NCBI GenBank assembly: GCA_036522835.1
Contig: DATDFB010000093.1
Coordinates: 40,683-104,682, forward strand
Length of the DNA stretch: 64,000 bases
Origin: Thermoanaerobaculia bacterium
GTDB taxonomy: Bacteria > Acidobacteriota > Thermoanaerobaculia > Gp7-AA8
Reading direction: 5' to 3'
Positions 1,343 to 19,147 of the stretch are shown here, piece by piece. The translations under genes and the position numbers were made by a program. The first letter of the stretch is position 1; every line of letters begins with the position of its first letter. The notes under the pieces were generated by a model, which saw only the letters and a list, made by a program, of their open reading frames with translations, was not told the origin of the DNA and did no database searches.

Positions 1343-2044
1343 GTGTTCGCGCTGCTCATCGCCGTCGCCGCCGCGGTGGCCGGCGGCATCGCCGCGGTGG
1401 CCGGCTTCGGCATCGGCAGCCTCCTCACGCCGCTCCTGGCGCTGCGCTTCGGGACGAAGCTCGCCGTCGCCATCGTCTCCGTGCCGCACTTCATCGGCAC
1501 GGCCGTCCGCTTCGCCACGATGTGGCGCCGCGTCGACCGCCGCGTGCTTCTCCGCTTCGGCGCGCTCAGCGCCGCCGGCGGCCTCCTCGGCGCGTTGCTG
1601 AACGCGTGGGCGAATAGCCGCGCGCTGACGATCGTCTTCGGCCTCCTCCTCATCTTCGCCGGCACCGCCGCGGGACGGCTGCGCTTCGGGCGCAAGACGG
1701 CCTGGCTGGCCGGGCTGGTGTCGGGACTCTTCGGCGGTCTGGTCGGAAACCAGGGCGGCATCCGCTCCGCCGCGCTCCTCGGATTCGAGCTGGAGAAAGA
1801 AAGCTTCGTCGCCACCGCCACCGCCATCGGCCTCGTCGTCGACGGCGCGCGGATGCCCGTCTACGTCGCCACGCAGTGGGCCGGCATGGCGCAGGCGCGC
1901 ACGGAGATGCTCATCGCCGCGGCCGGCGTCGTGGCCGGCACGTTCCTCGGCATCACGCTTCTCCGGCGCATTCCGGAGCGCTGGTTCCGCCGCGCCGTGT
2001 CGCTTCTCATCGTCCTGCTCGGTGTGTATATGCTCTTCAAATGA
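1343..2044 (+). CDS. TauE/SafE (DUF81) family sulfite-exporter-like membrane protein
   Basis: 233-aa poly-TM protein with two Gly-rich repeat halves (GFGIGSLLTPLL / GGLVGNQGG) typical of TauE/SafE. Confidence 0.75.
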   Translation: MFALLIAVAAAVAGGIAAVAGFGIGSLLTPLLALRFGTKLAVAIVSVPHFIGTAVRFATMWRRVDRRVLLRFGALSAAGGLLGALLNAWANSRALTIVFGLLLIFAGTAAGRLRFGRKTAWLAGLVSGLFGGLVGNQGGIRSAALLGFELEKESFVATATAIGLVVDGARMPVYVATQWAGMAQARTEMLIAAAGVVAGTFLGITLLRRIPERWFRRAVSLLIVLLGVYMLFK

Positions 2045-2793
2045 AGCGGCTCGCCCTCGTCGCACTCCTCGTCGCCACGCCCGCCTTCGCCCACGACTTC
2101 TGGATCGAGCCCTCGACGTTCCACCCCGCCGCGGGCGCGCGCATCACCGCCGCGCTCCGCGTCGGCATGCACCTCCTCGGCGATCCCGTTCCACGCATCG
2201 CGGAGCTCATCGACAAATTCTTCATCCGCGGCAACGGCGACGAGCGGCCGGTCGTCGGGCGCACGGGGATGGAGCCGGCCGGCATCGCCTTCGTCTCCGG
2301 GCCGGGGCTGCACTGGATCGGCTATCAGAGCTTCGCATCGCCGCTGAACCTCGATGCACAGAAGTTCGCGGAGTATCTGCGCGACGAAGGACTGCCGACG
2401 GTTCCGCGGGGGCCGGAGCGCTTCTACCGCTGCGCGAAGGCTCTGCTCGACACGCCCGGCGACTCCGGCAAGGTGCTGGAGACGCCGCTCGGCTTCACGC
2501 TCGAGCTGGTCCCGCACCGGAATCCCTACGCGTCGCGCGAGCTGCCGCTCACGCTGCTCTTCCGCGGCAAGCCGCTCGCGAACGCGCAGATCGTCGCCAT
2601 CAACGGCAACCACGAAGAGAAAGTGCGCACCGACGCGCGCGGCCGCGCCACCGTTCGGACCGCGCGGAGCGGCTTGTGGCTGATCAAGGCAGTGCACATG
2701 GAGCCGGCGCCGAAGGGCTCCGGCTCCATGTGGGAGAGCTGGTGGGCATCGATGACGTTCGAGTCTACGGGCGATATTCTGCTGCCGAGATGA
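2041..2793 (+). CDS. DUF4198-like secreted protein
   Basis: Signal peptide MKRLALVALLVATPAFA followed directly by HDFWIEP. ATG overlaps the upstream stop (ATGA). The upstream part of the 305-aa ORF is a non-coding extension. Confidence 0.65.
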   Translation: MKRLALVALLVATPAFAHDFWIEPSTFHPAAGARITAALRVGMHLLGDPVPRIAELIDKFFIRGNGDERPVVGRTGMEPAGIAFVSGPGLHWIGYQSFASPLNLDAQKFAEYLRDEGLPTVPRGPERFYRCAKALLDTPGDSGKVLETPLGFTLELVPHRNPYASRELPLTLLFRGKPLANAQIVAINGNHEEKVRTDARGRATVRTARSGLWLIKAVHMEPAPKGSGSMWESWWASMTFESTGDILLPR

Positions 2794-3499
2794 AGCGGCC
2801 GTCGTTGGTGGTGTTGTCGACGACGACGGCGTAGCAGACGGCGCTGTCCGACGGATTGAACCGCACGTACCCGTCCGTGACGATCGGAGTGATTCCGGTC
2901 TGTCCCCACGCGTGCGGCGGGAGGACCAGCGCGGCCGTGCCGATCGTCAGCTTGCCGGTGCTGTCGAGGACCGTGGCGGTGATCGTGTTCGCCGCATCGG
3001 ACTGGTTGAAGCAGCCGACGTTCGTACGGCTCGTGGAGTTGACGTTGATGCCCGGCGCGAACGACGGCGAGCTCGAGCCCCCGAACTCCAGCGCCGGCAC
3101 GGACGTGCTGAAGTTGCCCGCCGTCACCTCGCTGCTCACGACGAAGCGGTTGCTCGGATCGGGACTGGACAGCACCACGGCGCCGCCGCCCGTCGTGGCG
3201 AACACCGTGCCGAGAAAGTTCCCGAAGACCTTCTGCTCGCCGGCCGCGAGGGTGATGGTGGCGTCCTTCTTCGTGCCGGTCGCATCGAAGAAGCTGGCGG
3301 TGATGGAGTAGTCCGACGGCGTCGGATTGAGGATGGCCACGGAGCTCCGGAACACCGCGCCGCCGAAGCCGGTCGTGTTCGCGACCACGGGGATCGTTTG
3401 CACGTTCGAGGCGAAGCTGTCGTTCGGGGCGACGCCGCGCTTGCTCGTCTGCGCGAGCGCGGTGGTGGCGATGAGCGCGAGAAAAAGAAATCGTTTCAT
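2765..3499 (-). CDS. secreted hypothetical protein
   Basis: ATG at 3499 gives signal peptide MKRFLFLALIATTALAQT. Thr/Ser/Asn-rich beta-like mature protein. The remaining 5' part of the 635-aa ORF is a start-less in-frame extension. Confidence 0.6.
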   Translation of the reverse strand: MKRFLFLALIATTALAQTSKRGVAPNDSFASNVQTIPVVANTTGFGGAVFRSSVAILNPTPSDYSITASFFDATGTKKDATITLAAGEQKVFGNFLGTVFATTGGGAVVLSSPDPSNRFVVSSEVTAGNFSTSVPALEFGGSSSPSFAPGINVNSTSRTNVGCFNQSDAANTITATVLDSTGKLTIGTAALVLPPHAWGQTGITPIVTDGYVRFNPSDSAVCYAVVVDNTTNDGRFISAAEYRP

Positions 3500-3510
3500 G
3501 GTCGTTCTCC

Positions 3511-5058
3511 TCACTGGCACGGCGGGAAGGCGTTCGGATCCGGGATCACCGGCGTCGCCGGCAGGTTGATGCCGCCGTGGCCCTGAAGCAGCCCCTGGTG
3601 CGGCGGAGCGAGGAACGGGAAGCGCGGCAGGAACTCCTTGTCGTTGACCTCCACGCCCTTGGCCAGGCCGGCGTTCGGGTTGCCCGCGGCGATGAGGCTG
3701 ATGAGCACGGAGTTGACGTTGACCTGTTGGCGCGTCGACGTCGTGCCGCCGCCGAGGCGGCGCCCGTTCGGGAACTGCGAGTCGATCGCGGCGTCGAGCG
3801 TGATGACGTCGCCGGTCGAGCCGTCCGCCACCGGGATCGGGCGCCCGAGGTTGATGGCCTTGATGATGTCGAAGCGCGGTCCCTTCAGCGTCGCGATCGT
3901 GGCCGCGTCGAGGCCGAGGGCCTTGTAGACGCCGAGGGCCTCGAGGTCGCGCACGAGCACCGGGAAGAGCACGTCGTTGCCGAAGCGCGACACGTCCTTC
4001 ATCGGATCGGTGTGGAGATACAGCGTCTGCCGCTGCGTGCCGACAAAGCCGGCGTTGAAGAGCGGCAGGCCGTTGCGGCCGACCTGCACGAAGTTTCCGG
4101 AGCCGCGCAGGCCGGTGATGATGTTGCTCGGGTCGACGGTCTGCGTGGCCTGGCGGCTGATGCTGACCCAGACGCGCAGCAGGCTGTCGACGGAGTTCGC
4201 GTCGAGCGTGCCGTTGTGCGGAATGCCGTCGGGGAAGAGTTCCGCGGTCGGAATCTCCAGGGCGATGGAGGAGACGTTGAAGCCGGTGAAGACATCCTCG
4301 GACGGCGTCTTGCGCGCGCCGGGCGCGAGACCGGCGAGGTCCGGCGCGGCGAGGTTGACGAGGTCGAAGATGCCCTTCTCGTCGAGCTGATACGGATCGT
4401 CGAAATCGCCGGCGATGATGCGCCCGCCGTTCGAGAGCGGCTGAATGAACGTGTCGATGAAGGCCTGGCTGTAAAGGCCATTCTCGCGGCTGGAGCGGTC
4501 GGTGGAGTCGTAGCCCTTGAAGGGCCCGAGGCCGTAGACCAGACGGTCCGTCTGCGGGCCGTGGTTGTTCGGAAGGACTTTGAGGTCCTTGCCGATGACG
4601 GTCGGATTCGGCTGCCCCGGCGCCATGACGCGCGTGATGGTCATGGTCTCGGTGCCGCCGGTGAGCTGCCACAACAGCTCATTGCCGCCGCCTAAGGGGT
4701 CGGAGGCGCTCGGCGCGGCCTCGGGGGTGAGCGTCTTCTTGAACTCGACGCGGTAGACCGCCTGATCGGCGAGGCTCGCGCCCTTCCCGATGTGAAACTC
4801 GTATCGGTAGCCGTCGCACGCACGGAAGCCCTGGTTGCCTTGCCCAGGCTCATGCAGCGGGTTGTAATCCATGATCAGAAACAGCTTGTCGTGCGTGCCG
4901 TTCGAGACCCAGGCGAACGTGTCGGTGTTGTCCGCGCACGGCTCGTTGAGGACGGCCAGCGCCTCGCGGTGGCTCGACGCGTGCGCCGGCATGACGACCG
5001 CGAAAAGGGCGAGGACCAGCAACGCACCGGACATCCGGCGTATGGGAGAGAGTCGCAT
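3511..5058 (-). CDS. secreted hypothetical protein (~515 aa)
   Basis: Internal ATG at 5058 gives MRLSPIRRMSGALLVLALFAVVMPAHA signal peptide. The first 50 codons of the ORF are Arg/Glu-rich junk. No catalytic motif recognised. Confidence 0.6.
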   Translation of the reverse strand: MRLSPIRRMSGALLVLALFAVVMPAHASSHREALAVLNEPCADNTDTFAWVSNGTHDKLFLIMDYNPLHEPGQGNQGFRACDGYRYEFHIGKGASLADQAVYRVEFKKTLTPEAAPSASDPLGGGNELLWQLTGGTETMTITRVMAPGQPNPTVIGKDLKVLPNNHGPQTDRLVYGLGPFKGYDSTDRSSRENGLYSQAFIDTFIQPLSNGGRIIAGDFDDPYQLDEKGIFDLVNLAAPDLAGLAPGARKTPSEDVFTGFNVSSIALEIPTAELFPDGIPHNGTLDANSVDSLLRVWVSISRQATQTVDPSNIITGLRGSGNFVQVGRNGLPLFNAGFVGTQRQTLYLHTDPMKDVSRFGNDVLFPVLVRDLEALGVYKALGLDAATIATLKGPRFDIIKAINLGRPIPVADGSTGDVITLDAAIDSQFPNGRRLGGGTTSTRQQVNVNSVLISLIAAGNPNAGLAKGVEVNDKEFLPRFPFLAPPHQGLLQGHGGINLPATPVIPDPNAFPPCQ

Positions 5059-5167
5059 TGATTTCTCCTTTAGTTCCTTACTGCGTTCTTGTTCCCTCGA
5101 GGTGTTGACAAGTACGCGGGCGGGCTGCAAGTGGATTTGAGGCCCGTCTGTTGCACGGGCGAAATTC

Positions 5168-5548
5168 ATGAGACTCTCCGACGCGGATGCCGTGGCGACG
5201 ATCGCCGTCAAAGACCTGAGCGTGGCGAAGAAGTTCTACGAAGAGACGCTCGGCCTCAAACCGTTCGATGAACAGAATCCCGGCGGCGCCCGGTTTCACA
5301 GCGGCAACTCGACGCTGTTCGTCTATGAGTCGCAGTACGCCGGAACGAATCGCGCCACTGCCGCGACGTGGGTCGTCGACGACGCGGAGGAGGTCGTCCG
5401 CGCGCTCAAAGCGAAGGGCGTGGCCTTCGAGCACTACGACGATCTGCCCGGCCTGACCCGCCAGGGCGATCTGCACGTGGCCGGCCGTTTCAAGGGAGCG
5501 TGGCTGAAGGATCCGGACGGGAACATCCTGCACGTATTGAGCGTGTAA
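5168..5548 (+). CDS. VOC family protein (glyoxalase/bleomycin-resistance fold)
   Basis: 126 aa. IAVKDLSVAKKFYEETLG N-terminal beta-alpha-beta motif typical of VOC proteins. Confidence 0.8.
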   Translation: MRLSDADAVATIAVKDLSVAKKFYEETLGLKPFDEQNPGGARFHSGNSTLFVYESQYAGTNRATAATWVVDDAEEVVRALKAKGVAFEHYDDLPGLTRQGDLHVAGRFKGAWLKDPDGNILHVLSV

Positions 5549-5557
5549 CCGCTTCGC

Positions 5558-7762
5558 TCACGTTCGCCGCAAAGCGTGCAAAGCCGCCGCGCCCGGCGAG
5601 GCCGCTGACCGCGACGGCCGCGCCGGCGATCTGAACGCCGCCGCAACGGCCCCGCGGAGCATCGACTCCGAGGGAATGTACGGAATCGCGCCGCCGCACA
5701 TGGCCTCATCCCGCCGTCTGTGCCAATCCGTGACTTTCGAGCGATGGAGATCCGCCGCGCGCGCGAGAACGAAGTCTCGCGTGATCGTCGATCGCGTTTC
5801 GCCCGCGATGGGCGGTTGGCCGCGATCCAACAGCGGAAAGTCATTCATGATGAGAGCCGCGTCGTCCAGGTCGAGGCCGTACGCTTTGAAGATCGTCGCG
5901 TCGATCGTGGCCCGGAGCGCCGCCGCCGCGAGCATCGTGTCCCGGCTCGAGCCGGCGGACGCGAGGCGTACGAGCTTCCGCGCGTCATCGGCCAGTCTCC
6001 GCGTCGCGATCGTCTCCTCCATCAGGCTGGCCGGGACCGGCAGGCTCCGCAAGAGAAAATAATTGACCGTCGTGGTGATGACTCTTCGGGCCACCCAGTC
6101 GAAGGCAAAGCTGTTGAGCAGGGCCAGGAAGCGCAGCCGCTGAACTTCATCCTCATCACCGAAGGAGATCGTCGGCACCTTGTTGCCGCAGACGACGCCG
6201 GCCGGAATTGGCGCGGCCAGAATGGCGCGCTCGTTCGTCTGCCCGGTGGTGTCGCAGAAGCCCAAGCGCTCGCGGAAGGCGCGCTGGAGCGTCCGCTCGG
6301 GAAGCGAATCTTTCTTGCACCAGAACTGCGGCGCGGTCGCGGCGTCGCCGAACGGCAGCGGCGTCCATTGCGCGCGGCGGCCGCTGCCGCTCGCATACGC
6401 TTTCGCGCCGAACAGATATTGATTCACCATGCGGCCCTCGACAATCGGAAGAGCGCCGCTCGAGCGGTGCCGCGAGAACAGGGCGCGGTCGCGCGTCATG
6501 TCGAGCTCGCGAACGATCGTCGGCTGCCAGCGCGGCGGCACGTCGCTCCACCTCTGGCTATGACGATAGATGGCCCGGAGCACCCGCCATTCGGCGGGCC
6601 CGCGCACCTCCGGCACCGTCAGGTCTGGCCGCATGGCCTGCAACTGACGGATCGGGATCCGAACGCTCGACTCGGATGGCGCGGCGTGCGCGACTTCGAA
6701 TGCGCGCGCGCCCTTTTTCGCAACGCGCGCCGTGAGCGCGAGAAACTTGAACCGCGAGTCGATGGCGAAGAACCGCGCGCGATTTTCCATGACCACCAGG
6801 CGAAGGCCGCTCGTTCGTCCGAGCAGCAGTTGCCGCAGCTCTTCGGTCGATTGCGAGCGAATCAGGCCGGCGGGGACGAGCACGGAAAGCCGCCCGCCGC
6901 TGCCGGCCAGCCGGAACATCAGCTCCAGAAATGCTCTGTAGAGATCGGGCTCGCCGTTTCGGAGAAGCGGATACCGCTCGAGGAGCTGCATCGCATACGA
7001 GCTGACCTGCTCGAGCCCGGCCTCGTACGCGCGCAACGCCGATGAATCGTAGTCGGCGCCGTAGTGCCGCTCGCCGCCGAGCGACTGGATGTATTCGTGC
7101 CGCGAGAGCTTCAACTTCTCCCACGGCGGATTGGCGATCACCAGGTCGAAACCGCGCTCCGGGACGCCGGCGAGGAGACTGTCGTGCCGGCGCCAATGCG
7201 AATTCATTTCGTCGATGGCATCGAGATCGTCGACCATCGACGCCAGGGCCAACCGCGCGCCGCGCAGCGCGGCCGCCGACCGGTCCGCCGCATAGACGCG
7301 GTCGCGCAGCCACGACGCCGTTCGCACCCGGTCCGACCCGCACGCGGCCATGACCACGGCGGCGAGCAGCACGCCCGACCCGCTGGCCGGATCGATGACC
7401 CGGCCGTCCATGGCGTCGCGAGACAGGCCGGCGAGATATTGCGCAAGCCGGAAGTCGGTGTAATACGCGCCGGCCGTCCTCCGCGACAAATGCGGAAGGC
7501 GCTCGCGCGCGAGCGCGCTCAATGCCAGCGGAAGCGGAATGGCGATGTTGGAGAGCAGCGCCACGACGCGCTCCGCTGCCGCCAACGCTTCGTTCGCGCG
7601 GATGCGCGGCGAGAGATGGAAGCGCCGCCAGTATTCACGTACATCGAAACCGCCCGCTCGCGACGACGCCGCCTCGAGGACGGCCACGCGATCGTCGACC
7701 TCGGCGAGCAATAATTCGACAGGCGCTAAAAGCTGATCTTCGTGCGTCGACGCGACGGTCAA
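5558..7762 (-). CDS. gamma-class N6-adenine DNA methyltransferase (Eco57I/TaqI-like) with TaqI_C-type target-recognition domain, no nuclease domain
   Basis: YYTDFRLAQYLAG, SAM motif I VIDPASGSGVLL, catalytic motif IV IANPPWEKLK, GGRLSVLVPAGL, C-terminal LALLNSFAFDWVARRV (TaqI_C-like). The first 183 codons of the ORF overlap the dam gene and are Arg-rich junk. Proposed TTG start overlaps the dam stop (TTGA). Start uncertain. Confidence 0.75.
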   Translation of the reverse strand: MTVASTHEDQLLAPVELLLAEVDDRVAVLEAASSRAGGFDVREYWRRFHLSPRIRANEALAAAERVVALLSNIAIPLPLALSALARERLPHLSRRTAGAYYTDFRLAQYLAGLSRDAMDGRVIDPASGSGVLLAAVVMAACGSDRVRTASWLRDRVYAADRSAAALRGARLALASMVDDLDAIDEMNSHWRRHDSLLAGVPERGFDLVIANPPWEKLKLSRHEYIQSLGGERHYGADYDSSALRAYEAGLEQVSSYAMQLLERYPLLRNGEPDLYRAFLELMFRLAGSGGRLSVLVPAGLIRSQSTEELRQLLLGRTSGLRLVVMENRARFFAIDSRFKFLALTARVAKKGARAFEVAHAAPSESSVRIPIRQLQAMRPDLTVPEVRGPAEWRVLRAIYRHSQRWSDVPPRWQPTIVRELDMTRDRALFSRHRSSGALPIVEGRMVNQYLFGAKAYASGSGRRAQWTPLPFGDAATAPQFWCKKDSLPERTLQRAFRERLGFCDTTGQTNERAILAAPIPAGVVCGNKVPTISFGDEDEVQRLRFLALLNSFAFDWVARRVITTTVNYFLLRSLPVPASLMEETIATRRLADDARKLVRLASAGSSRDTMLAAAALRATIDATIFKAYGLDLDDAALIMNDFPLLDRGQPPIAGETRSTITRDFVLARAADLHRSKVTDWHRRRDEAMCGGAIPYIPSESMLRGAVAAAFRSPARPSRSAASPGAAALHALRRT

Positions 7763-8802
7763 GCGATCACCGCCCTCGCCAGCACCTCCTCCTCCTTTTG
7801 GATCTCGATCAGATATTCGGTCACGTCCGCCGCCGCCGCGCTGGCCACTGCATTCGGCCGGTACCGCCCGATCTCGCCGATGGCGCCGACGCTGACCTCC
7901 CCCAACGCGCTCAAGGCCTCGGTCAGCGGCTCGATCGGCACGTGCCCCTCCGAGCTGTAGGAGAGAAGAATGCGCCGCGGCGGCAGTTGCCGGACCATTT
8001 CGGCGATCGCGCCGAGGGCCTTGCGCCGATAGCAGAAGCGCGAGGCGTTCTGGACCCACGGCCTCAAGCCCGTCACGCCCGTGACTTCGGGCTCGTCCCC
8101 CAAGGCGATCGTTTCGAGGATGTGGTAGTAGGCGGCGTATTGGCGCTTCGTGTAGGGCGGGTCGAGATAGGCGACGTCGTCCGCGGTCATCGGAACCTCG
8201 AGGACGTCGCCGCAATGAATCCGCAGATCGACGCGCCGCGAGAAAAGCGTGCGCCGCGGCATGAGCATCAGCGGCTCGCGCGCCTGCGGCAGCCAGTGCC
8301 GCAGAAAACATCCATACGTTCCGGCGATGTTGGCGACGCGATTGGCCGCGGCCATGAGGTCCGCCACGAGCACGCGGTGCTCGGCCGTCGTGATCTCGCC
8401 AAGCGCGAAACGCCGCTCGATCTCGAAACGAATGGCGTCGATGCGAGCGGCGTTCTCTTCAGAAAAGTACTTTCGTCCCGAGACCGGGCTGTACTCGCGG
8501 TAAATGAATCCCTCGCGTGGCGGAATCTCGTTGAGATGAACGAGCGCGCGCTCATACGAGCCGAACGCGCGGAAGGGTATGTCTTCGCGCGCCGTCATCC
8601 GCGCCGCGGCCATGATCGTGGCCGAAAAGAGCGTGTCGTTGAGCGTGACGCTCCAGCCGCGAAGGGCGGCCCGTTCGGAGACGACGCCGGTGCCGCAAAA
8701 CGGCTCGATGAGACGGCGGCGAGAGTCCGCCGGCCTGCCGATGAGAGTGGCGATCGCGTCCGCAACCCGAGCTTTCGAACCGATGTAGCGAACGGTCGCC
8801 AT
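7759..8802 (-). CDS. Dam-family (D12/alpha class) N6-adenine DNA methyltransferase
   Basis: MATVRYIGSKARV (motif X), EPFCGTGVV (motif I), and DPPY (motif IV) after a central TRD, in alpha-class order. Starts 4 nt after the stop of the upstream GGDEF gene. Confidence 0.8.
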   Translation of the reverse strand: MATVRYIGSKARVADAIATLIGRPADSRRRLIEPFCGTGVVSERAALRGWSVTLNDTLFSATIMAAARMTAREDIPFRAFGSYERALVHLNEIPPREGFIYREYSPVSGRKYFSEENAARIDAIRFEIERRFALGEITTAEHRVLVADLMAAANRVANIAGTYGCFLRHWLPQAREPLMLMPRRTLFSRRVDLRIHCGDVLEVPMTADDVAYLDPPYTKRQYAAYYHILETIALGDEPEVTGVTGLRPWVQNASRFCYRRKALGAIAEMVRQLPPRRILLSYSSEGHVPIEPLTEALSALGEVSVGAIGEIGRYRPNAVASAAAADVTEYLIEIQKEEEVLARAVIA

Positions 8803-8806
8803 CCAT

Positions 8807-11575
8807 TCATGATTGCACGCGGAGGCTCGAGTGTGTGGGCGCGCCCACCCACGTGTTCCGCCCACTATTCTTCGCCCTGTAGAGTGCCTGATCGGCGAGC
8901 TCCACGACCTCCTCCCACGTTCGCGTGCCCATCGGAAATGCGGCGAAGCCGATCGACGCGGTCTTCGGCAGCGCTTGCCCATCGTCGAGGAGGAACGGAC
9001 GTTCGGCGATGGCGAGCCGCAGCCGCTCGGCGATCTCCGCCGCGTCGTCGCGGCTGCTGCCGCGCGTGATGGCCAGGAATTCTTCGCCGCCCCAGCGGAG
9101 GACGTAGTCCGAGGCGCGGAAGACCTGCTCGAGGCGCTCGCGCATCTGGCGGAGCACGGCGTCGCCCGCGGCGTGGCCGAGCTGATCGTTCACGGCCTTG
9201 AAGTGATCGATGTCGACGTGGAAGAAGACGAGATCGGTCCCTTGGCGCAGCGCCAGCGCGACGTCGTCGTCGATGCGCTGCATGAGGAACCGCCGGTTGC
9301 GCAAGCCGGTCAGCGCATCGGTGACGCTCATGTTCTCCAGCGCCGCATTCGCGGTAGCCAACTCACTGGTCCGCTCGGCGACGATCGCCTCGAGCCGCCG
9401 CGCGCGCTGCCGGAGGATTCGCGTCCTCGCGCGGATGACGGCGAGCACCGTGGCCACGAGCAGCGCGGCGACGAGCGCGCGGAACCACCACGTCTCGTAC
9501 CACGCCGGCAGCGCGCGCAACTGAAGGGCGATCACGCTCGTGCTCCACGCGCCGAGGCGGTTCGTGGCGCGGACGCGGAGCGTGTAGTTGCCGGGAGAGA
9601 GATTCGTGTACGCGGCCAGGCGATGCGCGGCGTCGGCGTCGATCCAGCCGTGGTTGTAGCCGTCGAGCGTGTACGCGTAGCGCAACGCCTCGGGCGCGGA
9701 GTAGTCGAGGGCCGCGAATTCGACGGCGATGTCGCGGTCGCCGGCGGGCAGCTCGATGCTCGCGCCGCGCGGCACGTCGCGTCCGCCGGCGCGTAGCGCG
9801 GTGATCGCCAGCGGCGGCGCGTACGTCCACTCCGCGCTGGCGCCGGGCGCGATGACGGTGACGGCGTAGGTGCCGGCGAAGAAGATGGTGCCGTCGGGCG
9901 CCGTGGCCACCGCGCGCGTCCAGAACTCGGTTTCCTGCACGCCCTCGGCCGGCCCGAAAACGCGCGCGCGGAAGGTGTCGGGATCGATGCGCAGGAGCGC
10001 GTTCGTCGCGCTCGCCCAGATCTGTCCGTCGGCGCCGAGGGCGAGGCCGGCGATGTTCTGGCGGTCTAGCCGGCGAACGCGGCCGCCGTCGAGAACGCAG
10101 AGCGGTCCGCCGAACGCCCCGGCCCAGACGCGGCCGCGGCGGTCCTCGACGATGGAGGTGATCGAGCCGGCGAGGAAGCGCGTCACGCTGTGCGTCTGCG
10201 GGTCGATGCGATTCAGCCCATTCGATGTGCCGGCCCAGATGCGTCCCGCGCGGTCGGCGTAGAGGACGGTGACGAAGTCGTTGGAGAGCTGGCCGTGGCC
10301 GTAGCGCGTGACCGCGCCGCTGCGCTCGTCGAGCGCGGCCACGCCGGCGCCGGAGCCGACCCAGAGCGTTCCGTCGCGTTCGAGAATCGCAAAGACGCGG
10401 CCGATGTCGCGATACGGGCAATCCACGGCGCCTTGCCGCAAACGGCAGAGACCCTGCACCGTGCCGATCCACAACGTGCCATCGGCGCCGCCGTGCAGCG
10501 CTTGCACGTGGCCCGGGACGGTGAACGTGGCCGGCATGCCGGTGCGCGGGTCGACCCGCACGACTTTGCCGGCGCCGCCGAGCCAGAGCGCGCCGTCGGA
10601 CGCCGCGGCAATCGCCCGCGCTCCCATGCCGCCCGCGCCGACGTCTTTGTCGAGCGCGAAGAGCTCGTGAATGCCGCGGTTGAGCGGGTTGTGCACGAGC
10701 AGGCCGCCCGGCCCGTTCGCCACCCAGATCAATCCCGAGCGGTCGCGAAAGAACTGCCAGACGTCGCCGGGCGTGAAGCCGCCGGGATTGGCGCGGTCGA
10801 CGGCCAGGCGCCGCACGCGCCGGCTCGCGTCGTCGACGATGGAGATGCCGCCGTCGTACGTCGCGACCCAGAAGACGCCGGGGGTGACTTCGATGATGCC
10901 CCACTGCTCGCCCACGATCGGAATCGCGCGCGCGCCGGCGAAGACGGCGTTGACGGAGCCGGCCCACAGCCGCCCAGCCGAATCCTCGTACAAGCTGAAA
11001 AACGTGCCGTCGCGCACGAGCCGAAACGCGGCGCCGGAGCGCGGGCGATGAAAGAGCCCGCGTACGGTCGCAACCCAGACGCCCTGCGCGCGGTCGACGA
11101 GGATGGCCTCGACGCGCGCGTCGATATCGACGTGCTGAAACGCGTCGCTCGCCGGATCGAGCAAATCAAGCCCGCGGTCGCCGCCGACCCACAGCCGCCC
11201 GTCGGGGTTTCGCGCGAGCGCAATGACGGTCGCGCTCCGCGGTTTGAAGGCGCGAAACCGATCGGTGGCCGTGTCGAGCGCCAAGAGGCCGTTCGACGGC
11301 GTGCCGATCCAGAGCGTGCCGGAAGGGTCGGCCAGCAGCGCCTGCACGGCCGGCGGAAAGTGCCGGAAGCGATGGCCGTCATAGCGCGCCAGCCCGCCCG
11401 GCGTCCCGACCCAGATGAACCCGGAGGCGTCCTGCGCCACCGCGTAGACGGCCGGATGCGGCAAGGCCTTCTGATCGATGCGCAGAAAGACGGGATCGGC
11501 AACGTCGCCCCACGGCGACGCCGCGGCAACCCGCACGAGGAGGGAGGAAAGGAGGGCGGCCCGCGCCCAATGCAT
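8807..11575 (-). CDS. sensor diguanylate cyclase: periplasmic two-component-regulator propeller (Reg_prop) repeats + Y_Y_Y, one TM helix, GGDEF domain
   Basis: Signal peptide. Repeated GxIWVGTxxGLxRYD Reg_prop units. YAYTLDGYNHGWID (Y_Y_Y). TM WWFRALVAALLVATVLAVI. RWGGEEF active-site motif. Confidence 0.85.
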   Translation of the reverse strand: MHWARAALLSSLLVRVAAASPWGDVADPVFLRIDQKALPHPAVYAVAQDASGFIWVGTPGGLARYDGHRFRHFPPAVQALLADPSGTLWIGTPSNGLLALDTATDRFRAFKPRSATVIALARNPDGRLWVGGDRGLDLLDPASDAFQHVDIDARVEAILVDRAQGVWVATVRGLFHRPRSGAAFRLVRDGTFFSLYEDSAGRLWAGSVNAVFAGARAIPIVGEQWGIIEVTPGVFWVATYDGGISIVDDASRRVRRLAVDRANPGGFTPGDVWQFFRDRSGLIWVANGPGGLLVHNPLNRGIHELFALDKDVGAGGMGARAIAAASDGALWLGGAGKVVRVDPRTGMPATFTVPGHVQALHGGADGTLWIGTVQGLCRLRQGAVDCPYRDIGRVFAILERDGTLWVGSGAGVAALDERSGAVTRYGHGQLSNDFVTVLYADRAGRIWAGTSNGLNRIDPQTHSVTRFLAGSITSIVEDRRGRVWAGAFGGPLCVLDGGRVRRLDRQNIAGLALGADGQIWASATNALLRIDPDTFRARVFGPAEGVQETEFWTRAVATAPDGTIFFAGTYAVTVIAPGASAEWTYAPPLAITALRAGGRDVPRGASIELPAGDRDIAVEFAALDYSAPEALRYAYTLDGYNHGWIDADAAHRLAAYTNLSPGNYTLRVRATNRLGAWSTSVIALQLRALPAWYETWWFRALVAALLVATVLAVIRARTRILRQRARRLEAIVAERTSELATANAALENMSVTDALTGLRNRRFLMQRIDDDVALALRQGTDLVFFHVDIDHFKAVNDQLGHAAGDAVLRQMRERLEQVFRASDYVLRWGGEEFLAITRGSSRDDAAEIAERLRLAIAERPFLLDDGQALPKTASIGFAAFPMGTRTWEEVVELADQALYRAKNSGRNTWVGAPTHSSLRVQS

Positions 11576-11589
11576 GAAAGGATGTTCTC

Positions 11590-12414
11590 ATGACAAAGCA
11601 TGGCGTGATCGGGGCGAAAGGACCCATGGGGAACGCGCTGATGGATCTTTTCCCGGGCGCGGTCGGTGTCGACAAAGGCTCGGATTTATCCGCGGTGTGG
11701 GCCTGCAATGCAATTTGGCTGGCGATCCCGCGAGACGAGGTCGACAAGGTGCTGGACGACGTGCGTCTTCAGCCCTCGCAGGTCGTGATCGACATCTGCT
11801 CGATCAAGCGCGGCGTCGCTGCGGTCGTCCGCTCCTCGGGCGCGACACACCTCTCGCTGCATCCGATGCACGGCCCCAACATCCGCCACGATCGCCAGAA
11901 GTGGTTTTTGATCGGCGGGCGGAACAACGTCGCCGGCGTCGCCGCCGAGGTGCTGGCGTTCCTGGAGGGTCTCGGCATCAGGCTCATCGAGACGACCGAG
12001 GACGAGCACGACTTCATGATGGGCATCCTCCTCGGCATGAAGGAGCTCCTGACGCTGGCGATGGACCGGATGATCGCCGCGTACGCGGAGGATCGGGGAA
12101 GGGGGGAGCCGACGATCGCGAAGCTCCTCGATTGGGCCAGTCCCGTCGCGAACGCCGTGTACGGCGCGTACGTGCATTCGGTGCTGCGGTCGAACGACGC
12201 GCTGCGAGAAGAGCTCGTGGAAGGATCGACGGGCGTGCGGGAGAGCGCGATCCGCGCGCTCGCTGCGCTCGCGGAAGAGCTGAAAGGGCTGGAGCTGGAG
12301 GCGGCGTTCCGGCGTCAACGCGCGCGCGTCGCAGGCGAGGTCTCGGCGGCGCGTCAAGACGATATCAGCGACCACATCGACGCATGGTTCGAGGACGTCC
12401 GGGCGGTGCGGTAG
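11590..12414 (+). CDS. prephenate/arogenate dehydrogenase-like NAD(P)-binding protein
   Basis: N-terminal VIGAKGPMGNAL dinucleotide-binding motif. Length and helical C-terminal half fit the TyrA family. Assignment is moderate. Confidence 0.55.
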   Translation: MTKHGVIGAKGPMGNALMDLFPGAVGVDKGSDLSAVWACNAIWLAIPRDEVDKVLDDVRLQPSQVVIDICSIKRGVAAVVRSSGATHLSLHPMHGPNIRHDRQKWFLIGGRNNVAGVAAEVLAFLEGLGIRLIETTEDEHDFMMGILLGMKELLTLAMDRMIAAYAEDRGRGEPTIAKLLDWASPVANAVYGAYVHSVLRSNDALREELVEGSTGVRESAIRALAALAEELKGLELEAAFRRQRARVAGEVSAARQDDISDHIDAWFEDVRAVR

Positions 12415-15010: not shown

Positions 15011-15697
15011 TCATGCGGGAGAAATCACCACGTGGACGCGGCCGGATCGCAGCTCCAGGCGGACGGCGCTCCACTCTTCAAAATGCGCGTCCGCCTCCGT
15101 TTGATCCTCTCGGCCGAAGACCTTGGACGGCGTAGCGACACAGACCAGTCCCGCAGCGCGCGCGGCGGCAATGCCCGAAGGCGCATCCTCGAAGGCGATC
15201 GCGCATTCGTTGGGAACCCCGAGCGCCGAGACCGCCAGCCGATAGCCGGCCGGATGCGGCTTGACGTTCGGCTCGACGTCCTCGCGCGCGATCACGACGT
15301 CCGGCGCCGGAAGGCGCATCGTACGCAGCGCGATCTGGGCGCTGGACCGTCGCGCGGTGCTGACGACGCCGATCGCAACGCCGAGAGCCCGCAGCCGAGC
15401 CCAGAACGCTTCGACACCGGGAAGGGGACGTAAGTCTCGCTCGGCCAAGACGGCGAAGTGCGCCGATTTCTCGCGATGGAGGACTGCCGCCTCGTCGGAG
15501 GGCAGCATCAGGACCTCTTCGAATCGGCGCTGCCCCCGCAGACAGAAGTCGACGTAATCGTCCCAAACCGGCGCGGAGCGGCCGCGATCGGCGAGCGCGC
15601 GGCGCCACGCCTCGAAGTGCAGCGGCGCGCTGTCGCAGAGCGTGCCGTCCAGGTCGAAGAGCGCAGCGCGAAGATCCGCAATCAACTCGCCGCTCAT
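15011..15697 (-). CDS. HAD-superfamily hydrolase (beta-phosphoglucomutase-like phosphatase)
   Basis: FDLDGTLCDS motif I. ATG overlaps stop of upstream SIR2 gene (ATGA). Confidence 0.8.
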   Translation of the reverse strand: MSGELIADLRAALFDLDGTLCDSAPLHFEAWRRALADRGRSAPVWDDYVDFCLRGQRRFEEVLMLPSDEAAVLHREKSAHFAVLAERDLRPLPGVEAFWARLRALGVAIGVVSTARRSSAQIALRTMRLPAPDVVIAREDVEPNVKPHPAGYRLAVSALGVPNECAIAFEDAPSGIAAARAAGLVCVATPSKVFGREDQTEADAHFEEWSAVRLELRSGRVHVVISPA

Positions 15698-18534
15698 CCC
15701 CGTTCGGCCCAAAGCGCCTGCCACACCCGCTCATTGCGCAGTCGTTCCAGGACGCACAGGAAATCGACGAACGACCCGGCGTAGCATTTGAGGCTCGCCA
15801 GCACCGTCGCGGCGAAGAGAATCGTCTCGGGTGTTTGACGGTTTTCCAAGCTCCTCCAAAGACCGTACGAAAGAATGCCCCGAACCGTATCGCCCGCGCC
15901 GAGGGTGTGCCGTTTCAGCGCTGCAGCCACGCGAAAATCGGCCGACTCGCCGTTGCACCTCAAGTGGCCGTCTCCCGCGCCCGCGTCCGCAGGAATGGTA
16001 ATCGTTGCTTCGTTGACGATGTTCGGAACGCCGCCGCGATCGGACTCGCCCACGAAGCGGATCTCCCGGCCGGAGCGCTCCGTTCGCACGATGATGGCGA
16101 CGGGCGAAGCCTGGGCATCGCGACGCCATGACGCAATCAAGCCCAGCTCGTGCATCGTGACCACGAATCCGCCTCCCAACCGGGCGTCGGGGGCCAGCAA
16201 CGCGGCCGGTACGAGACCCGGAGTCGAGAGAATCTGCCACGCCGATCGGTGGATGTCCGTCCAGCAGGCCTGAAGCCAGCTGCCGTAGGCAATCTCCGGT
16301 CCGTGAGCAACCTTTTTCGGATCCCAGAGAGTCTTTCCGAAGCTGTTGATCCGCACCACGTACTCAGCGCCGCCGGGAGCCGCCGGCGACGCCAGCTGCT
16401 GCAGGCGGGGATCCGCGCGAAATTCGCGGAATGCGCGATCGACGGTCTCCCAATCCGGCATCGTCGGGTTGTTATTCGTGTCGAGGAAGCCGATGGACTG
16501 GAGCGCAAGCGTGCGGAGAAATGACCCGATCGACGCCGTCCAGACGGCGGGAGGCTTCGACAGACGGAGCAGTTCATCGCCGGATGATCCGGTCTCGTAG
16601 ACGACCGGCCCCTTCCAGTTCCCGACGAGCTGCGCATCGGCCAACTTGTCCGCGAAGAGCAAGTCTGCGGCTCCGGCAAAATCCAGATGCGGAGGAACCT
16701 TCAACGCGCTGACGCGCGACGCTGACAGTCCGGCCACGACAGGCTCATCGACATCGAGGATCATGCGTTGCCGTGGCTGGAGCGAGTCTTCGTCGCTCTT
16801 TTCCGCATCGAATAGGAGGACATGGCTCGTCCGTCCCGCTTCCGTACCGGCCGTCTCGCCGATGGGCCGCACGTCGATGCCCGCGGAAAGACAGAACTCT
16901 TCGACTTCGTTCCAATGGGACCAGCGCTCGACGCCGTTCGACAGGAATGCGATTCGCCCCACCGACGAAGGGCCCGCCGCCGTCGCCGCGACCATCACCG
17001 GTACGAGCCCGGAACCTCCCGGGACCTGCGAATCGACGGGCTCGAGGCTTGCGGAGACGCGCCGCCGCTCCGGGAAATCATCTGCCTTGCGCAGCGCGAT
17101 GGCGTGCCAGACGGACGCGAGTCCGGCGACGACGAGGCGCGGCGGCGTCGCCGGTGCCGGCGTGCCGGCTTTCGATCGGACGCCGCCGGATGCGAGCGGG
17201 ATTCGCGTGAGCTCGGCGGTCTGTGCGTCGAGCCACGCCTGTGCGGACGCGTGCTGGAGACTGCGGCGCCAGGGGTTGTCCAACTGCGCACGGAGGTCCA
17301 CACCGGGGTCGCGGCGGCCGCCGGGATAGCGCCACTCGTGCTTCTTGACGGCCGTCAGCTCGCCCGGAAGCCGCGCGCGACCGATTCCTCCCGGCGAAAA
17401 GCTCCACCACTCCACGCCGAGTTGCCTCAGCCGCTCCTCCTCGTGAAGGTCGGCGAGCGCATCGCGCCGGTATCGCAAGGCCACACGCCGGTTCGGGCCT
17501 CTCCACTCGTGTTTGTGGCGCTGCAGGACGGCGCCGACGTCGACGTCCACCTCGTGCAGGTCATAGCCGATGAAGAGCAGCGGCGACCGTCCCAAGACTT
17601 CGAGAAGCTCGGCGATGGCCGCGTCCTCCCCAAGAAAACGCCGGAGCACTTCCAGATACTCGGTCTGGGAAAATACGCCGGTGGTCACGGCGGATTGCTC
17701 GTCATGCTCGGGAGCCATCCGCCAATGCAAGCCGGGCACGAGTCGATCGGTCGGGACGGCGCCGGCGAATTCTTCGTCCGCGCCCAGTTTGCCCCACAGA
17801 CTGTCCGCCGCAAACGCGCGGTCGAGCTCCATTCGTTCCGTCAACCAACGCCGGCCCAGAGCGCGCTTGATCGCGTGGAGGCAGCCATGGATTTTCCAGA
17901 TTTTGACCGACGCCGCCGTACTGGCGGAGCCTCGGGTCCAGCGCGCGTTGATCCCTTCGGGCGTTGCCGTCTCGATCGCGACGGCGGGGTCGTGCACAAC
18001 GCCGTCGAGGGCTCTGGCAATGTTCTGTTCGATCGCACAATCGACGTTGGTGGTGACGACGTGAACGGGCGGTGACTTCCTCGCCAGAACCTGGATGGTC
18101 ACGACCTCGGCGATCCATTCGAGGAGCGCATTGCTGGCAATTCCGTTCGGGGGATGGAGCTCGCGGCCGAGCAGATGGAGACGAGCAAGCCGCGCCGACT
18201 CGCGCGTCAGATGCGGAAACCGGCTCACCACCTGATCGTCGAACCATTCCGCCTGCCGCGGTGCCGGCAGTTGGACGAAGCTCGACAGGGGCAGGCACGC
18301 GCGGCTTTTGGGATCGCCCGCCAGCGACCAGAGATCTTCCATGTGCTTCTGCCAGGAAGGACCAGGCTCGCCCTCGTCGAGATTCCTTCTGGGCACGGTG
18401 TTCGTCGGCACCCTGCGAATCCCATTGCCGATGAAGAGAACGAGCTCCCCTTTGGCGATGGATTCGCCGAGGTGACCCGCCATCTCGACTTTGCGCGCCT
18501 CGTCCGGATCGACCATTGCAGGTTCCAGCGGCAT
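15694..18534 (-). CDS. SIR2_2 (ThsA/DSR-type sirtuin-like) domain protein with ~550-aa uncharacterised C-terminal region
   Basis: ELVLFIGNGIR (Rossmann), VVTTNVDCAIEQ (TTNYD-like), KIWKIHGCL (HG), PLLFIGYDLHEVDVDV. ATG at 18534 preceded by GGAAAG. The upstream 74 codons overlap the nth-like gene. Confidence 0.75.
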   Translation of the reverse strand: MPLEPAMVDPDEARKVEMAGHLGESIAKGELVLFIGNGIRRVPTNTVPRRNLDEGEPGPSWQKHMEDLWSLAGDPKSRACLPLSSFVQLPAPRQAEWFDDQVVSRFPHLTRESARLARLHLLGRELHPPNGIASNALLEWIAEVVTIQVLARKSPPVHVVTTNVDCAIEQNIARALDGVVHDPAVAIETATPEGINARWTRGSASTAASVKIWKIHGCLHAIKRALGRRWLTERMELDRAFAADSLWGKLGADEEFAGAVPTDRLVPGLHWRMAPEHDEQSAVTTGVFSQTEYLEVLRRFLGEDAAIAELLEVLGRSPLLFIGYDLHEVDVDVGAVLQRHKHEWRGPNRRVALRYRRDALADLHEEERLRQLGVEWWSFSPGGIGRARLPGELTAVKKHEWRYPGGRRDPGVDLRAQLDNPWRRSLQHASAQAWLDAQTAELTRIPLASGGVRSKAGTPAPATPPRLVVAGLASVWHAIALRKADDFPERRRVSASLEPVDSQVPGGSGLVPVMVAATAAGPSSVGRIAFLSNGVERWSHWNEVEEFCLSAGIDVRPIGETAGTEAGRTSHVLLFDAEKSDEDSLQPRQRMILDVDEPVVAGLSASRVSALKVPPHLDFAGAADLLFADKLADAQLVGNWKGPVVYETGSSGDELLRLSKPPAVWTASIGSFLRTLALQSIGFLDTNNNPTMPDWETVDRAFREFRADPRLQQLASPAAPGGAEYVVRINSFGKTLWDPKKVAHGPEIAYGSWLQACWTDIHRSAWQILSTPGLVPAALLAPDARLGGGFVVTMHELGLIASWRRDAQASPVAIIVRTERSGREIRFVGESDRGGVPNIVNEATITIPADAGAGDGHLRCNGESADFRVAAALKRHTLGAGDTVRGILSYGLWRSLENRQTPETILFAATVLASLKCYAGSFVDFLCVLERLRNERVWQALWAERG

Positions 18535-18560
18535 CGCTTTCCACGCGTGCCGCAAGCAGT

Positions 18561-19147
18561 CTAACGATGCGCCGTCACGCCGACCTGCCGGCAGTACTCG
18601 AGGACCGCGCAAGTCGAGCACTTGGGCAGGCGTCCCGTGCAGATGTGCTTTCCGAACGGCACGCGACGTAGCCCCAGCGGTTCGTGACGCGATGCACGTG
18701 GATATCCACGCTGATCCGCTCCGCCCCGCAGGCCACCCCCATCGCCAAATTCGCACACTTGGGACCGACGCCGTGGAACGAGGTCAGAATCTCGAAGTCG
18801 CAGGGAATCTCGCCGCCGAATTCGTCCACGGTGCGCCGCGCGATCTCGCGGATCTGCGCCGCCTTCGCCTCGTGAAAGCTGCTCGCCCGGATCAGCGTAT
18901 CGATCTGCGCCACGGACAACGCCGCCACAGCGGCCGGCGTGGCCGCACGCTCGAAGAGGTTGATGGCCGTTGGAAGACTCACTTCGTCGCGAGTGCGGAT
19001 GGAGATGATGCACCCGACAAGCTGCTGAAAGACGCTCCGAAAGCCGCGCTGCGCAAGCGCGAACATGGCCGCGTCCGCATGCTCCGTCACCGCCGCGCGG
19101 ACGCGGCGCAGGACGTCGTCGATGTCGAACGGCCGCTTGCGCGCCAT
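18561..19147 (-). pseudogene. nth: endonuclease III (Nth)-like HhH-GPD glycosylase, apparently frameshifted before the 4Fe-4S motif
   Basis: HhH-GPD region (FHGVGPKCANLAMGV ... DIHVHRVTNRWGYV) lies in one frame. The Cys-x6-Cys-x2-Cys-x5-Cys cluster (CTGRLPKCSTCAVLEYC) lies in the +1 frame of the same strand. Confidence 0.5.

What the first reader, a model, noticed from the sequence alone, without database searches (positions are those of the whole stretch)
5558..11575. Tightly coupled operon: sensor diguanylate cyclase, Dam-class methyltransferase, gamma-class TaqI/Eco57I-like adenine methyltransferase, with no endonuclease in the vicinity
Three minus-strand genes are separated by 4 nt (TGA-N4-ATG) and by an overlapping TTGA. 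They are a periplasmic beta-propeller/Y_Y_Y/GGDEF sensor, an alpha-class Dam-like MTase (motif X RYIGSKARV, motif I EPFCGTG, DPPY), and a 730-aa gamma-class MTase (DPASGSG, NPPW, TaqI_C-like LALLNSFAFDW TRD). Two adenine MTases of different classes side by side are typical of Type IIS systems that methylate each strand of an asymmetric site. However, no restriction enzyme ORF is present on either side (VOC gene downstream, GGDEF upstream). Either this is an orphan epigenetic module co-expressed with c-di-GMP signalling, or the partner nuclease was lost or acts in trans. The first 183 codons of the long ORF are an artefactual extension across dam.
Basis: partly seen in the sequence, partly recalled or inferred. 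Interest (0 to 1): 0.55.

Follow-up and report, generated by a model that had tools for sequence, protein, structure and literature searches.

The report
Methylase pair left after nuclease deletion
The two adjacent DNA adenine methylases are the surviving half of a five-gene restriction-modification cassette whose three restriction genes were removed by a 2.8-kb deletion, so this is an ordinary, well-documented case of restriction-system decay and not a new epigenetic or c-di-GMP module.

Summary
Three minus-strand genes (GGDEF sensor, D12-class methylase, 734-aa Eco57I/TaqI-like methylase) are joined by TGA-N4-ATG and TTGA, and no nuclease gene lies nearby. The explanation comes from related sequences. 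In 64 of 69 informative genomes the same methylase pair is followed by three more genes: a ~190-aa protein (S), a short McrB-like AAA+ motor and a McrC-like PD-(D/E)XK nuclease. This is the LlaI/BsuMI-type "non-canonical McrBC" layout.

A syntenic sister contig (L004, 93% identical) has all five genes between the same GGDEF and glyoxalase genes. A more distant relative (L088) has the empty site. The window lacks 2,801 bp of L004, joined at a 3-bp CGG microhomology (5643-5641), and keeps about 26 cassette-derived codons of the McrC 3' end. A third relative (L091) lost the same genes through a different deletion.

The 4-nt coupling to the GGDEF gene results from the cassette inserting into that gene's last codons. 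It is absent from 80 other genomes. Both methylases are intact (dN/dS 0.14-0.19) and are probably still active as an orphan pair.

Verdict: a new member of a known kind, with low-to-moderate interest.

The parts
8807..11575 (-). Neighbouring host gene: periplasmic beta-propeller/Y_Y_Y/GGDEF diguanylate cyclase. Its last 11 codons and its TGA stop (8842-8807) are encoded by the inserted cassette DNA.
   Evidence: Pfam GGDEF 1.4e-42, Reg_prop, Y_Y_Y. Homology to the empty-site relative L088 stops at window 8842. C-termini differ...NTWVSGITRSRHEGYFRRDL* in L088 against ...NTWVGAPTHSSLRVQS* in the window.
5564..8841 (-). What is left of the inserted restriction-modification cassette (about 3.3 kb of an original 6.1 kb).
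   Evidence: blastn of L088 (empty site) against the window and L004. L088 11752 aligns to window 8842 and L088 11740 aligns to window 5563. The insert in L004 is 1752-7836.
7759..8802 (-). D12-class (alpha) N6-adenine DNA methyltransferase, 347 aa, intact.
   Evidence: PF02086 E 2.7e-29. PADLOC MTase_II PDLC03257 full length at 4e-58, and the first half of the 646-residue model PDLC03287 at 4e-61. dN/dS 0.14 against L004. It precedes the long MTase in 78 of 80 surveyed loci, counting four where it is cut by a contig end or an insertion; it is absent only in L086, whose D12 side is not cut, and in L073 it is split by an insertion.
5558..7762 (-). Eco57I/TaqI-like (gamma) N6-adenine DNA methyltransferase with TRD, 734 aa, TTG start overlapping the D12 stop. 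Residues 1-707 are native. The last 26 codons (5640-5561) are an out-of-frame read of the McrC remnant.
   Evidence: Pfam Eco57I and N6_Mtase. Family alignment. AF2 pLDDT 88.7 with residues 710-734 below 50. Foldseek hits M.BseCI, CamA and M.TaqI at E 1e-14 to 1e-19. Tail comparison with L004. dN/dS 0.19.
5641..5643 (-). Deletion junction: a 3-bp CGG microhomology where 2,801 bp (L004 4956-7756) are missing. The missing stretch covers the last ~20 nt of the MTase gene, all of S, all of the McrB-like gene, and 88% of the McrC-like gene.
   Evidence: blastn of L004 against the window and a base-by-base three-way alignment.
5564..5640 (-). Remnant of the McrC-like nuclease gene (about 26 C-terminal codons, GVQIAGAAVAVSGLAGRGGFARFAANV), in a different frame from the MTase tail.
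   Evidence: tblastn: L004 McrC residues 377-427 match window 5645-5493 at 92% identity, E 1e-22. L005 McrC matches at 58% identity, E 1.5e-6.
5168..5548 (+). Host glyoxalase/VOC gene flanking the insertion site on the right, convergent with the cassette.
   Evidence: PF00903 in the gene calls of L006, L004 and L088. Translation aligned.

Best explanation
The D12-class and Eco57I/TaqI-like methylase genes are the modification half of a five-gene cassette: D12 MTase, gamma MTase, S (~190 aa), a short McrB-like AAA+ motor and a McrC-like PD-(D/E)XK nuclease. This cassette is a LlaI/BsuMI-type 'non-canonical McrBC' restriction-modification system.

Shown: in an ancestor of this Thermoanaerobaculia lineage the cassette inserted between the convergent GGDEF and glyoxalase genes, inside the last 16 codons of the GGDEF gene. 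That insertion created the TGA-N4-ATG junction. Later, in the window's lineage, one 2.8-kb deletion between 3-bp microhomologies removed S, the motor and most of the nuclease gene. It also fused a 26-codon out-of-frame tail to the gamma MTase.

Inferred: the two intact MTases still methylate adenine, probably one on each strand of an asymmetric site. They are probably transcribed by read-through from the GGDEF gene, because only about 40 nt of cassette DNA precede the D12 start. The locus no longer restricts DNA. Restriction genes can be lost without harm while methylation continues, whereas the reverse order of loss is lethal. This asymmetry would explain why MTase-only remnants recur.
For: The five-gene order was seen in Pseudomonas, alphaproteobacterial, JGI and ENA contigs. 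It holds in 64 of 69 informative GTDB species loci.

B matches McrB structures 6hz4 and 6ut3 at E ~1e-12 and has Walker A, Walker B and the MNQADxS signature. C matches PF10117 at E 4e-15 and has a PD...DAKYK motif.

L004 is syntenic with the window on both sides and has all five genes. The junction and microhomology are shown, and the McrC remnant. The empty site in L088/L089 is shown.

L091 carries an independent deletion with different end-points, L004 4931-7842. The pairwise DNA identities put L091 (87.7% to the window, 88.1% to L004) outside the window-L004 pair (93.5%), so the two deletions arose separately.

The same deletion appears in three assemblies of one sample: NCBI, ENA and Logan. 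The MTase ORFs are intact and conserved, with dN/dS 0.14 and 0.19, and carry all invariant motifs.

LlaI and BsuMI are described as MTase(s) plus R1 (DNA binding), R2 (short McrB-like) and R3 (McrC-like), acting site-specifically (bioRxiv 10.64898/2026.08.31.748284). LlaJI is described in PMC1459862 and PMC12707154.
Against: No methylation or restriction data exist for any member of this cassette family, so MTase activity, the recognition site and strand assignment are inferences.

The dN/dS values cover the whole window-L004 divergence. They cannot show constraint after the deletion specifically.

S shows no detectable homology to LlaI.R1 (329 aa), so the equivalence rests on gene position only.

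Only 64 kb of the genome was examined for a relocated nuclease.

The promoter scan found no sigma-70-like site anywhere in 5000-12000. Read-through transcription is therefore assumed and was not demonstrated.
Confidence: 0.85

Rival explanations
1. A selected orphan epigenetic module. After the nuclease was lost, the MTase pair was retained because methylation is useful, either for gene regulation or as 'vaccination' against re-invasion by the same cassette. Its expression became tied to the c-di-GMP sensor gene.
For: Both ORFs are intact, with dN/dS 0.14-0.19, similar to the neighbouring GGDEF gene at 0.13. Two independent deletions in sister lineages kept both MTases. Pair-only loci recur in 3 of 69 other species. 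Only about 40 nt separate the cassette's left edge from the D12 start, so expression probably depends on the GGDEF transcript.
Against: Retaining M after losing R is the expected neutral outcome, because M cannot be lost first. The pair-only state is rare (about 5%) and phylogenetically scattered, which fits transient remnants. The GGDEF linkage is absent from 80 other genomes and from L091. The constraint signal cannot be dated to after the deletion.
Confidence: 0.25
2. The nuclease acts in trans. S-B-C, or another cognate nuclease, is encoded elsewhere in the genome, and the system is still a working restriction-modification system.
For: BsuMI is split into two separate operons in B. subtilis. 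Only 64 kb of the genome could be searched here.
Against: There is no S, B or C homologue elsewhere in the window apart from the remnant. The remnant and the microhomology junction show in-place deletion, not relocation. In 64 of 69 loci the five genes are contiguous.
Confidence: 0.05
3. A Type IIS-like system with a conventional single-chain endonuclease, now missing.
For: Two MTases of different classes side by side are typical of systems with asymmetric sites. The D12 enzyme matches the first half of a 646-residue two-domain Type II MTase model.
Against: None of the 80 related loci has a conventional REase after the pair. All complete ones have S plus McrB-like plus McrC-like genes.
Confidence: 0.02
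4. Assembly artefact or minor variant. The deletion exists only in a chimeric contig or a sub-population.
For: The source is a soil metagenome MAG. Full-length relatives exist in other samples (L004, L092).
Against: Three different assemblies of ERR1051325 give the identical junction: the NCBI 119.9-kb contig, the ENA 52.8-kb contig and the Logan 3.7-kb contig. The junction leaves a continuous ORF.
Confidence: 0.03

Closest known systems
LlaI (Lactococcus plasmid pTR2030) and BsuMI (Bacillus subtilis): 'non-canonical McrBC' restriction-modification systems
   Same: In full-length relatives there are cognate MTase(s) plus a three-gene restriction cassette. [quoted passage not shown] These systems are presumed to act on unmethylated specific sites.
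   Different: The MTases here are one D12-class enzyme plus one 740-aa Eco57I/TaqI-like gamma enzyme. LlaI has a single FokI-like MTase according to the literature. The first restriction protein, S, is about 190 aa with no Pfam or PDB sequence match, whereas LlaI.R1 is 329 aa with an ERCC4-like domain. The window itself has lost all three restriction genes.
LlaJI (pNP40): two MTases plus R1 (McrB-like) plus R2 (McrC-like)
   Same: Two MTases for an asymmetric site are combined with a McrBC-type motor nuclease that cuts unmethylated DNA (PMC1459862, PMC12707154).
   Different: LlaJI MTases are m5C enzymes. Its McrB-like R1 carries a fused N-terminal B3 DNA-binding domain. Here the motor has no such domain and a separate S protein is present. 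Foldseek gave only weak, non-significant B3-domain hits for S.
Solitary gamma-class m6A MTases with TRD: CamA (C. difficile), M.BseCI, M.TaqI
   Same: They are the best structural matches of the 734-aa MTase, with E 1e-14 to 1e-19 and TM 0.61-0.77 normalised to the target. CamA is an orphan MTase acting on one strand of an asymmetric site.
   Different: Sequence identity is 12-15%. The window protein has an extra ~95-aa N-terminal helical region and ~90 C-terminal residues. It derives from a restriction cassette and was not an orphan originally.
Orphan MTases produced by decay of restriction-modification systems (general phenomenon)
   Same: The R genes were lost, the M genes are retained and intact, and a deletion scar is present.
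   Different: Here all four states are observed in related genomes: the empty site, the complete cassette, and two independent deletion derivatives.

Membership tests
LlaI/BsuMI-type non-canonical McrBC restriction-modification system | Cognate DNA methyltransferase gene(s) in or next to the restriction operon | tested here: met
   D12 and Eco57I-like MTases lie directly upstream of S-B-C with overlapping stop and start codons.
LlaI/BsuMI-type non-canonical McrBC restriction-modification system | [quoted passage not shown] | tested here: not met
   Absent from the window because it was deleted. Present in relatives: 366-382 aa, Walker A at residues 23-33, McrB PDB hits at E 1e-12.
LlaI/BsuMI-type non-canonical McrBC restriction-modification system | McrC-like PD-(D/E)XK nuclease | tested here: not met
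   The window keeps only a remnant of about 26 codons. Relatives have PF10117 at E 4e-15 and the PD...DAKYK motif.
LlaI/BsuMI-type non-canonical McrBC restriction-modification system | Separate R1 DNA-binding subunit homologous to LlaI.R1/BsuMI.R1 | tested here: inconclusive
   S occupies the same position but is 190 aa against 329 aa. It has no Pfam hit in 50 members and no PDB sequence hit. Foldseek found nothing below E 0.07.
LlaI/BsuMI-type non-canonical McrBC restriction-modification system | Site-specific restriction of unmethylated DNA, with protection by the MTase(s) | not testable with these tools
   Needs cloning and phage or plasmid restriction assays.
   No such gene is in the window or in any of 80 related loci. 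The conserved partner is S plus McrB-like plus McrC-like.
Dam family (TIGR00571, GATC methylase) | Score at or above the NCBIfam cut-off | tested here: not met
   29.2 bits against a cut-off of 114.85, and only residues 3-57 align. Membership of the broader D12 class (PF02086) is met at 103 bits against a cut-off of 22.
Alw26I/Eco31I/Esp3I adenine MTase family (TIGR02987) | Score at or above the NCBIfam cut-off | tested here: not met
   104.4 bits against a cut-off of 353.5. The protein is a distant relative only. Eco57I PF07669 and N6_Mtase PF02384 are met.
Gamma-class N6-adenine DNA MTase | Motif I (D/E)PxxGxG upstream of motif IV NPPW, followed by a C-terminal TRD | tested here: met
   DPASGSG at residues 124-130 and NPPWEK at 211-216, both invariant in 56 homologues. 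The fold matches M.TaqI, CamA and M.BseCI including the TRD.
MADS defence system | mad2 MTase together with the other mad genes | tested here: not met
   There is a partial mad2 hit (1e-18 over the MTase core) and only a faint mad8 hit on B (0.0003-0.004). No other mad genes are present.
Orphan (solitary) DNA methyltransferase | No cognate nuclease in the genome | tested here: inconclusive
   None is present in the 64-kb window. The rest of the genome could not be searched.

The most novel reading that the evidence does not exclude
Two readings remain open. First, the cassette family (D12 MTase, gamma MTase, S, short McrB, McrC; found in more than 500 species representatives) could be an uncharacterised branch of site-specific McrBC systems, with S as a new kind of DNA-specificity subunit. 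Second, in this lineage the orphaned MTase pair may have been captured by the transcript of a periplasmic-sensor diguanylate cyclase. Genome methylation would then track expression of a c-di-GMP signalling gene, giving an accidental epigenetic output of that sensor.
Probability: 0.1. Interest if true: 0.55.

Novelty: new member of a known kind. Interest (0 to 1): 0.3.

Why it matters
The result removes an apparent puzzle: two methylases, no nuclease, and tight linkage to c-di-GMP signalling. All of it is explained by insertion followed by deletion.

The case is unusually clean. Related genomes show the empty site, the complete cassette and two independent nuclease-loss derivatives. This illustrates how orphan methylases arise and why M genes outlive R genes.

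The work also flags a widespread but unstudied LlaI/BsuMI-like cassette. It occurs in more than 500 species, including 5 E. coli genomes and Kluyvera ATCC 33433. Its small S subunit has no known relatives, and culturable hosts are available for experiments.

Tried and rejected
- PADLOC scan of all neighbours. It gave only generic MTase_II/IIG hits and a partial mad2 hit, and recognised no complete defence system.
- NCBIfam. Dam and Alw26I-family membership both fell below their cut-offs.
- Search for S, B and C elsewhere in the window. Only the remnant was found.
- Search for a GGDEF sensor next to the cassette in 80 genomes. There was one unrelated GGDEF domain 3.4 kb from the cassette end in L024 and nothing adjacent.
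- Sigma-70 promoter and terminator scan of 5000-12000. No promoter-like site was found, and terminator-like sites occurred at the chance level.
- Phage collection. It contains no homologue of the gamma MTase.
- Literature search for this specific five-gene family. Nothing was found beyond the LlaI/BsuMI/LlaJI and CoCoNuT census papers.
- First dN/dS attempt. It failed because of frame and coordinate errors and was redone.
- A possible ~25-nt imperfect direct repeat at the two cassette boundaries was noted, but it is too weak in GC-rich DNA to interpret.
Full report
**What is in the window.**
- The three minus-strand ORFs exist as described.
- The upstream gene (8807-11575, 922 aa) has Reg_prop, Y_Y_Y and GGDEF domains.
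- The middle gene (7759-8802, 347 aa) is a D12-class adenine MTase (PF02086, E 2.7e-29). It is not a Dam orthologue: TIGR00571 scores 29 bits against a cut-off of 115.
- The third ORF (5558-8311, 917 aa) is real only from the TTG at 7762, which gives 734 aa. The family consensus N-terminus aligns from that codon, and public gene calls use it.
- TGA-ATGG-ATG at 8809-8800 and TTGA at 7762-7759 were read directly from the sequence.
- The 734-aa protein passes the Eco57I and N6_Mtase cut-offs. It has invariant DPxxGxG and NPPWEK motifs.
- Its AlphaFold model (pLDDT 88.7) matches M.BseCI, CamA and M.TaqI including the TRD, with E 1e-14 to 1e-19.
- The downstream VOC/glyoxalase gene is on the + strand (5168-5548). 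No nuclease gene lies nearby.

**What the pair normally belongs to.**
- The 734-aa MTase has hundreds of ~740-aa homologues at 45-50% identity across many phyla.
- In contigs from Pseudomonas baetica, an alphaproteobacterium, and JGI and ENA metagenomes the gene order is always the same: D12 MTase, this MTase, a ~190-aa protein (S), a ~370-aa AAA+ protein, then a ~430-aa McrC-family protein. Stop and start codons overlap.
- At least 507 GTDB species representatives encode a relative. I scored the best 80 by tblastn.
- Of the 69 loci with at least 3.3 kb of downstream flank, 64 carry S, B and C. Three carry the MTase pair alone (L049, L070, L087). One has the pair plus S only (L075). One is degraded (L073). 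In L030 the McrC gene is split by a ~2.4-kb insertion.
- B matches McrB structures at E ~1e-12. It has Walker A, Walker B and the MNQADxS (NxxD) signature, but no N-terminal DNA-binding domain.
- C matches PF10117 at E 4e-15 and has a PD...DAKYK motif.
- S has no Pfam family and no PDB sequence match. Its AF2 model is confident (pLDDT 91.5). Foldseek finds nothing significant, only weak recurrent B3 DNA-binding domains with TM up to 0.49.
- PGAP annotates the five genes in E. coli as DNA adenine methylase, Eco57I-domain methylase, hypothetical protein, AAA ATPase and McrC. Five of 5,426 complete E. coli genomes carry the cassette. Six plasmids carry it and no phages do.

**Comparison with the literature.**
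- MTase(s) plus a separate small protein, a short McrB-like motor and a McrC-like nuclease is the layout reported for LlaI and BsuMI. These are called 'non-canonical McrBC' systems and act site-specifically, protected by their MTases (bioRxiv 10.64898/2026.08.31.748284).
- LlaJI is the related four-gene form. It has two MTases for an asymmetric site and a B3 domain fused to the motor (PMC1459862; PMC12707154).
- The McrBC census paper notes that association with methyltransferases occurs in all McrB branches (PMC11090510).
- I found no paper on this particular five-gene family.

**What happened at this locus.**
- Contig L004 (JGI 3300044854) is syntenic with the window on both sides. The GGDEF gene lies upstream with the same 4-nt spacing, and glyoxalase, DUF4331, DUF4198 and TauE lie downstream. 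L004 carries all five cassette genes.
- blastn aligns L004 1-4955 to window 10592-5638 (93.5% identity) and L004 7757-12059 to window 5643-1342 (96.7% identity). L004 4956-7756 has no counterpart in the window.
- The base-level alignment shows the two arms meeting at a 3-bp CGG.
- The deletion removed the last ~20 nt of the MTase gene, all of S, all of the motor gene and 88% of the McrC gene.
- What follows the junction still translates, in another frame, to the McrC C-terminus. It is 92% identical to L004 (E 1e-22) and 58% identical to the more distant L005 (E 1.5e-6). The event is therefore a deletion in the window's lineage, not an insertion in L004.
- As a result the window MTase ends in a 26-residue out-of-frame tail, where L004 has EEERFGG. 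That tail is predicted to be disordered.
- The same junction appears in three separate assemblies of sample ERR1051325.

**The insertion that preceded the deletion.**
- A more distant relative, L088/L089 (GGDEF 88% identical), has the empty site. There the GGDEF and glyoxalase genes converge and overlap.
- Alignment places the cassette's left edge at window 8842 and its right edge at 5563.
- The left edge is 33 nt before the GGDEF stop. The last 11 residues of the GGDEF protein and its TGA therefore come from cassette DNA, and the D12 start follows 4 nt later.
- The 'tight coupling' is thus a by-product of where the cassette landed. The GGDEF Pfam domain (residues 751-907) lies upstream of the junction and is intact.
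- The GGDEF sensor is not adjacent to the cassette in any of 80 other genomes.

**A second, independent loss.**
- Contig L091 (MTase 86% identical) also has the pair directly followed by the glyoxalase gene. It lacks L004 4931-7842, which are different end-points, and it has a different left flank.
- L091 is more distant from the window (87.7%) and from L004 (88.1%) than those two are from each other (93.5%). Since L004 is complete, the two deletions must be independent.
- L092 is a second complete relative from another sample.

**State of the surviving genes.**
- Neither MTase has internal stops, and both keep all family-invariant residues.
- dN/dS against L004 is 0.14 for D12 and 0.19 for the gamma MTase core. 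For comparison it is 0.13 for GGDEF, 0.25 for glyoxalase and 0.06 for DUF4331.
- This shows purifying selection over the whole divergence. It cannot be assigned to the period after the deletion.

**Most likely function now (inference).**
- The two enzymes still methylate adenines, plausibly one strand each of an asymmetric site as in LlaJI and BsuMI.
- They are probably transcribed by read-through from the GGDEF gene. No promoter-like site was detected, although the scan covers only the sigma-70 consensus.
- The locus no longer restricts DNA. Whether the pair is kept by selection or is a transient remnant cannot be decided from sequence.

**Verdict.**
- This is an ordinary decay product of a restriction-modification system that belongs to a known kind (LlaI/BsuMI-like).
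- The cassette family itself is experimentally unstudied and has an unknown small subunit.

Noticed in passing
window 15694-18756 (-): A 1020-aa ORF with weak SIR2_2 (Pfam 4.8e-7) and PADLOC SIR2 (1.8e-4) hits, about 4 kb beyond the GGDEF gene. It may be a defence-type SIR2 protein. Its neighbours gave no Pfam hits.
   Followed up: partly
L004 7837-7910 and window 5563-5490: In the complete relative the McrC ORF runs about 24 codons past the cassette's right edge into host DNA, antisense to the 3' end of the glyoxalase gene. The inserted cassette therefore lacked its own McrC stop.
   Followed up: partly
window 8842 and 5563 (cassette edges) against L088 11740-11775: Both edges resemble the same ~25 nt of the empty site (GTGAGCGGCATCACGCGCTCAAG). 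This could be an imperfect duplicated target or chance similarity in GC-rich DNA. No integrase or transposase is present.
   Followed up: partly
L091 1-205: In this relative the DNA left of the D12 gene is not the GGDEF gene. Homology to L004 starts only 21 nt before the D12 ATG, and a TACAAT -10-like hexamer lies just upstream. The left flank has been rearranged.
   Followed up: no
L030 12038-14450: The McrC gene of the Meridianimarinicoccus roseus cassette is split by a ~2.4-kb insertion. This is another route to nuclease inactivation with the MTases intact.
   Followed up: no
L033 6889-13195, with E. coli NZ_CP020835 852088-858394 and others: The Kluyvera ascorbata ATCC 33433 cassette is 99.9-100% identical in four E. 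coli genomes from unrelated sources, which indicates very recent horizontal transfer.
   Followed up: no
window 10592-5638 compared with 5643-1342: DNA identity to L004 is 93.5% left of the deletion junction and 96.7% right of it. dS is 0.17-0.21 for GGDEF and the MTases against 0.07-0.14 for glyoxalase and DUF4331. This may reflect recombination or different constraint.
   Followed up: no
S protein family (alignment A2, e.g. L004 4983-5546): The family has invariant GGGARDLRF, PPTDAR and E..R motifs, a confident beta-rich AF2 model and no annotated relatives anywhere. It is a candidate DNA-specificity subunit.
   Followed up: partly
L008 4926-5456 (-): In the Hyalangium MAG an S-like ORF lies upstream of the MTase pair on the opposite strand, and the contig ends 1.2 kb after the gamma MTase. 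The cassette may be rearranged.
   Followed up: no
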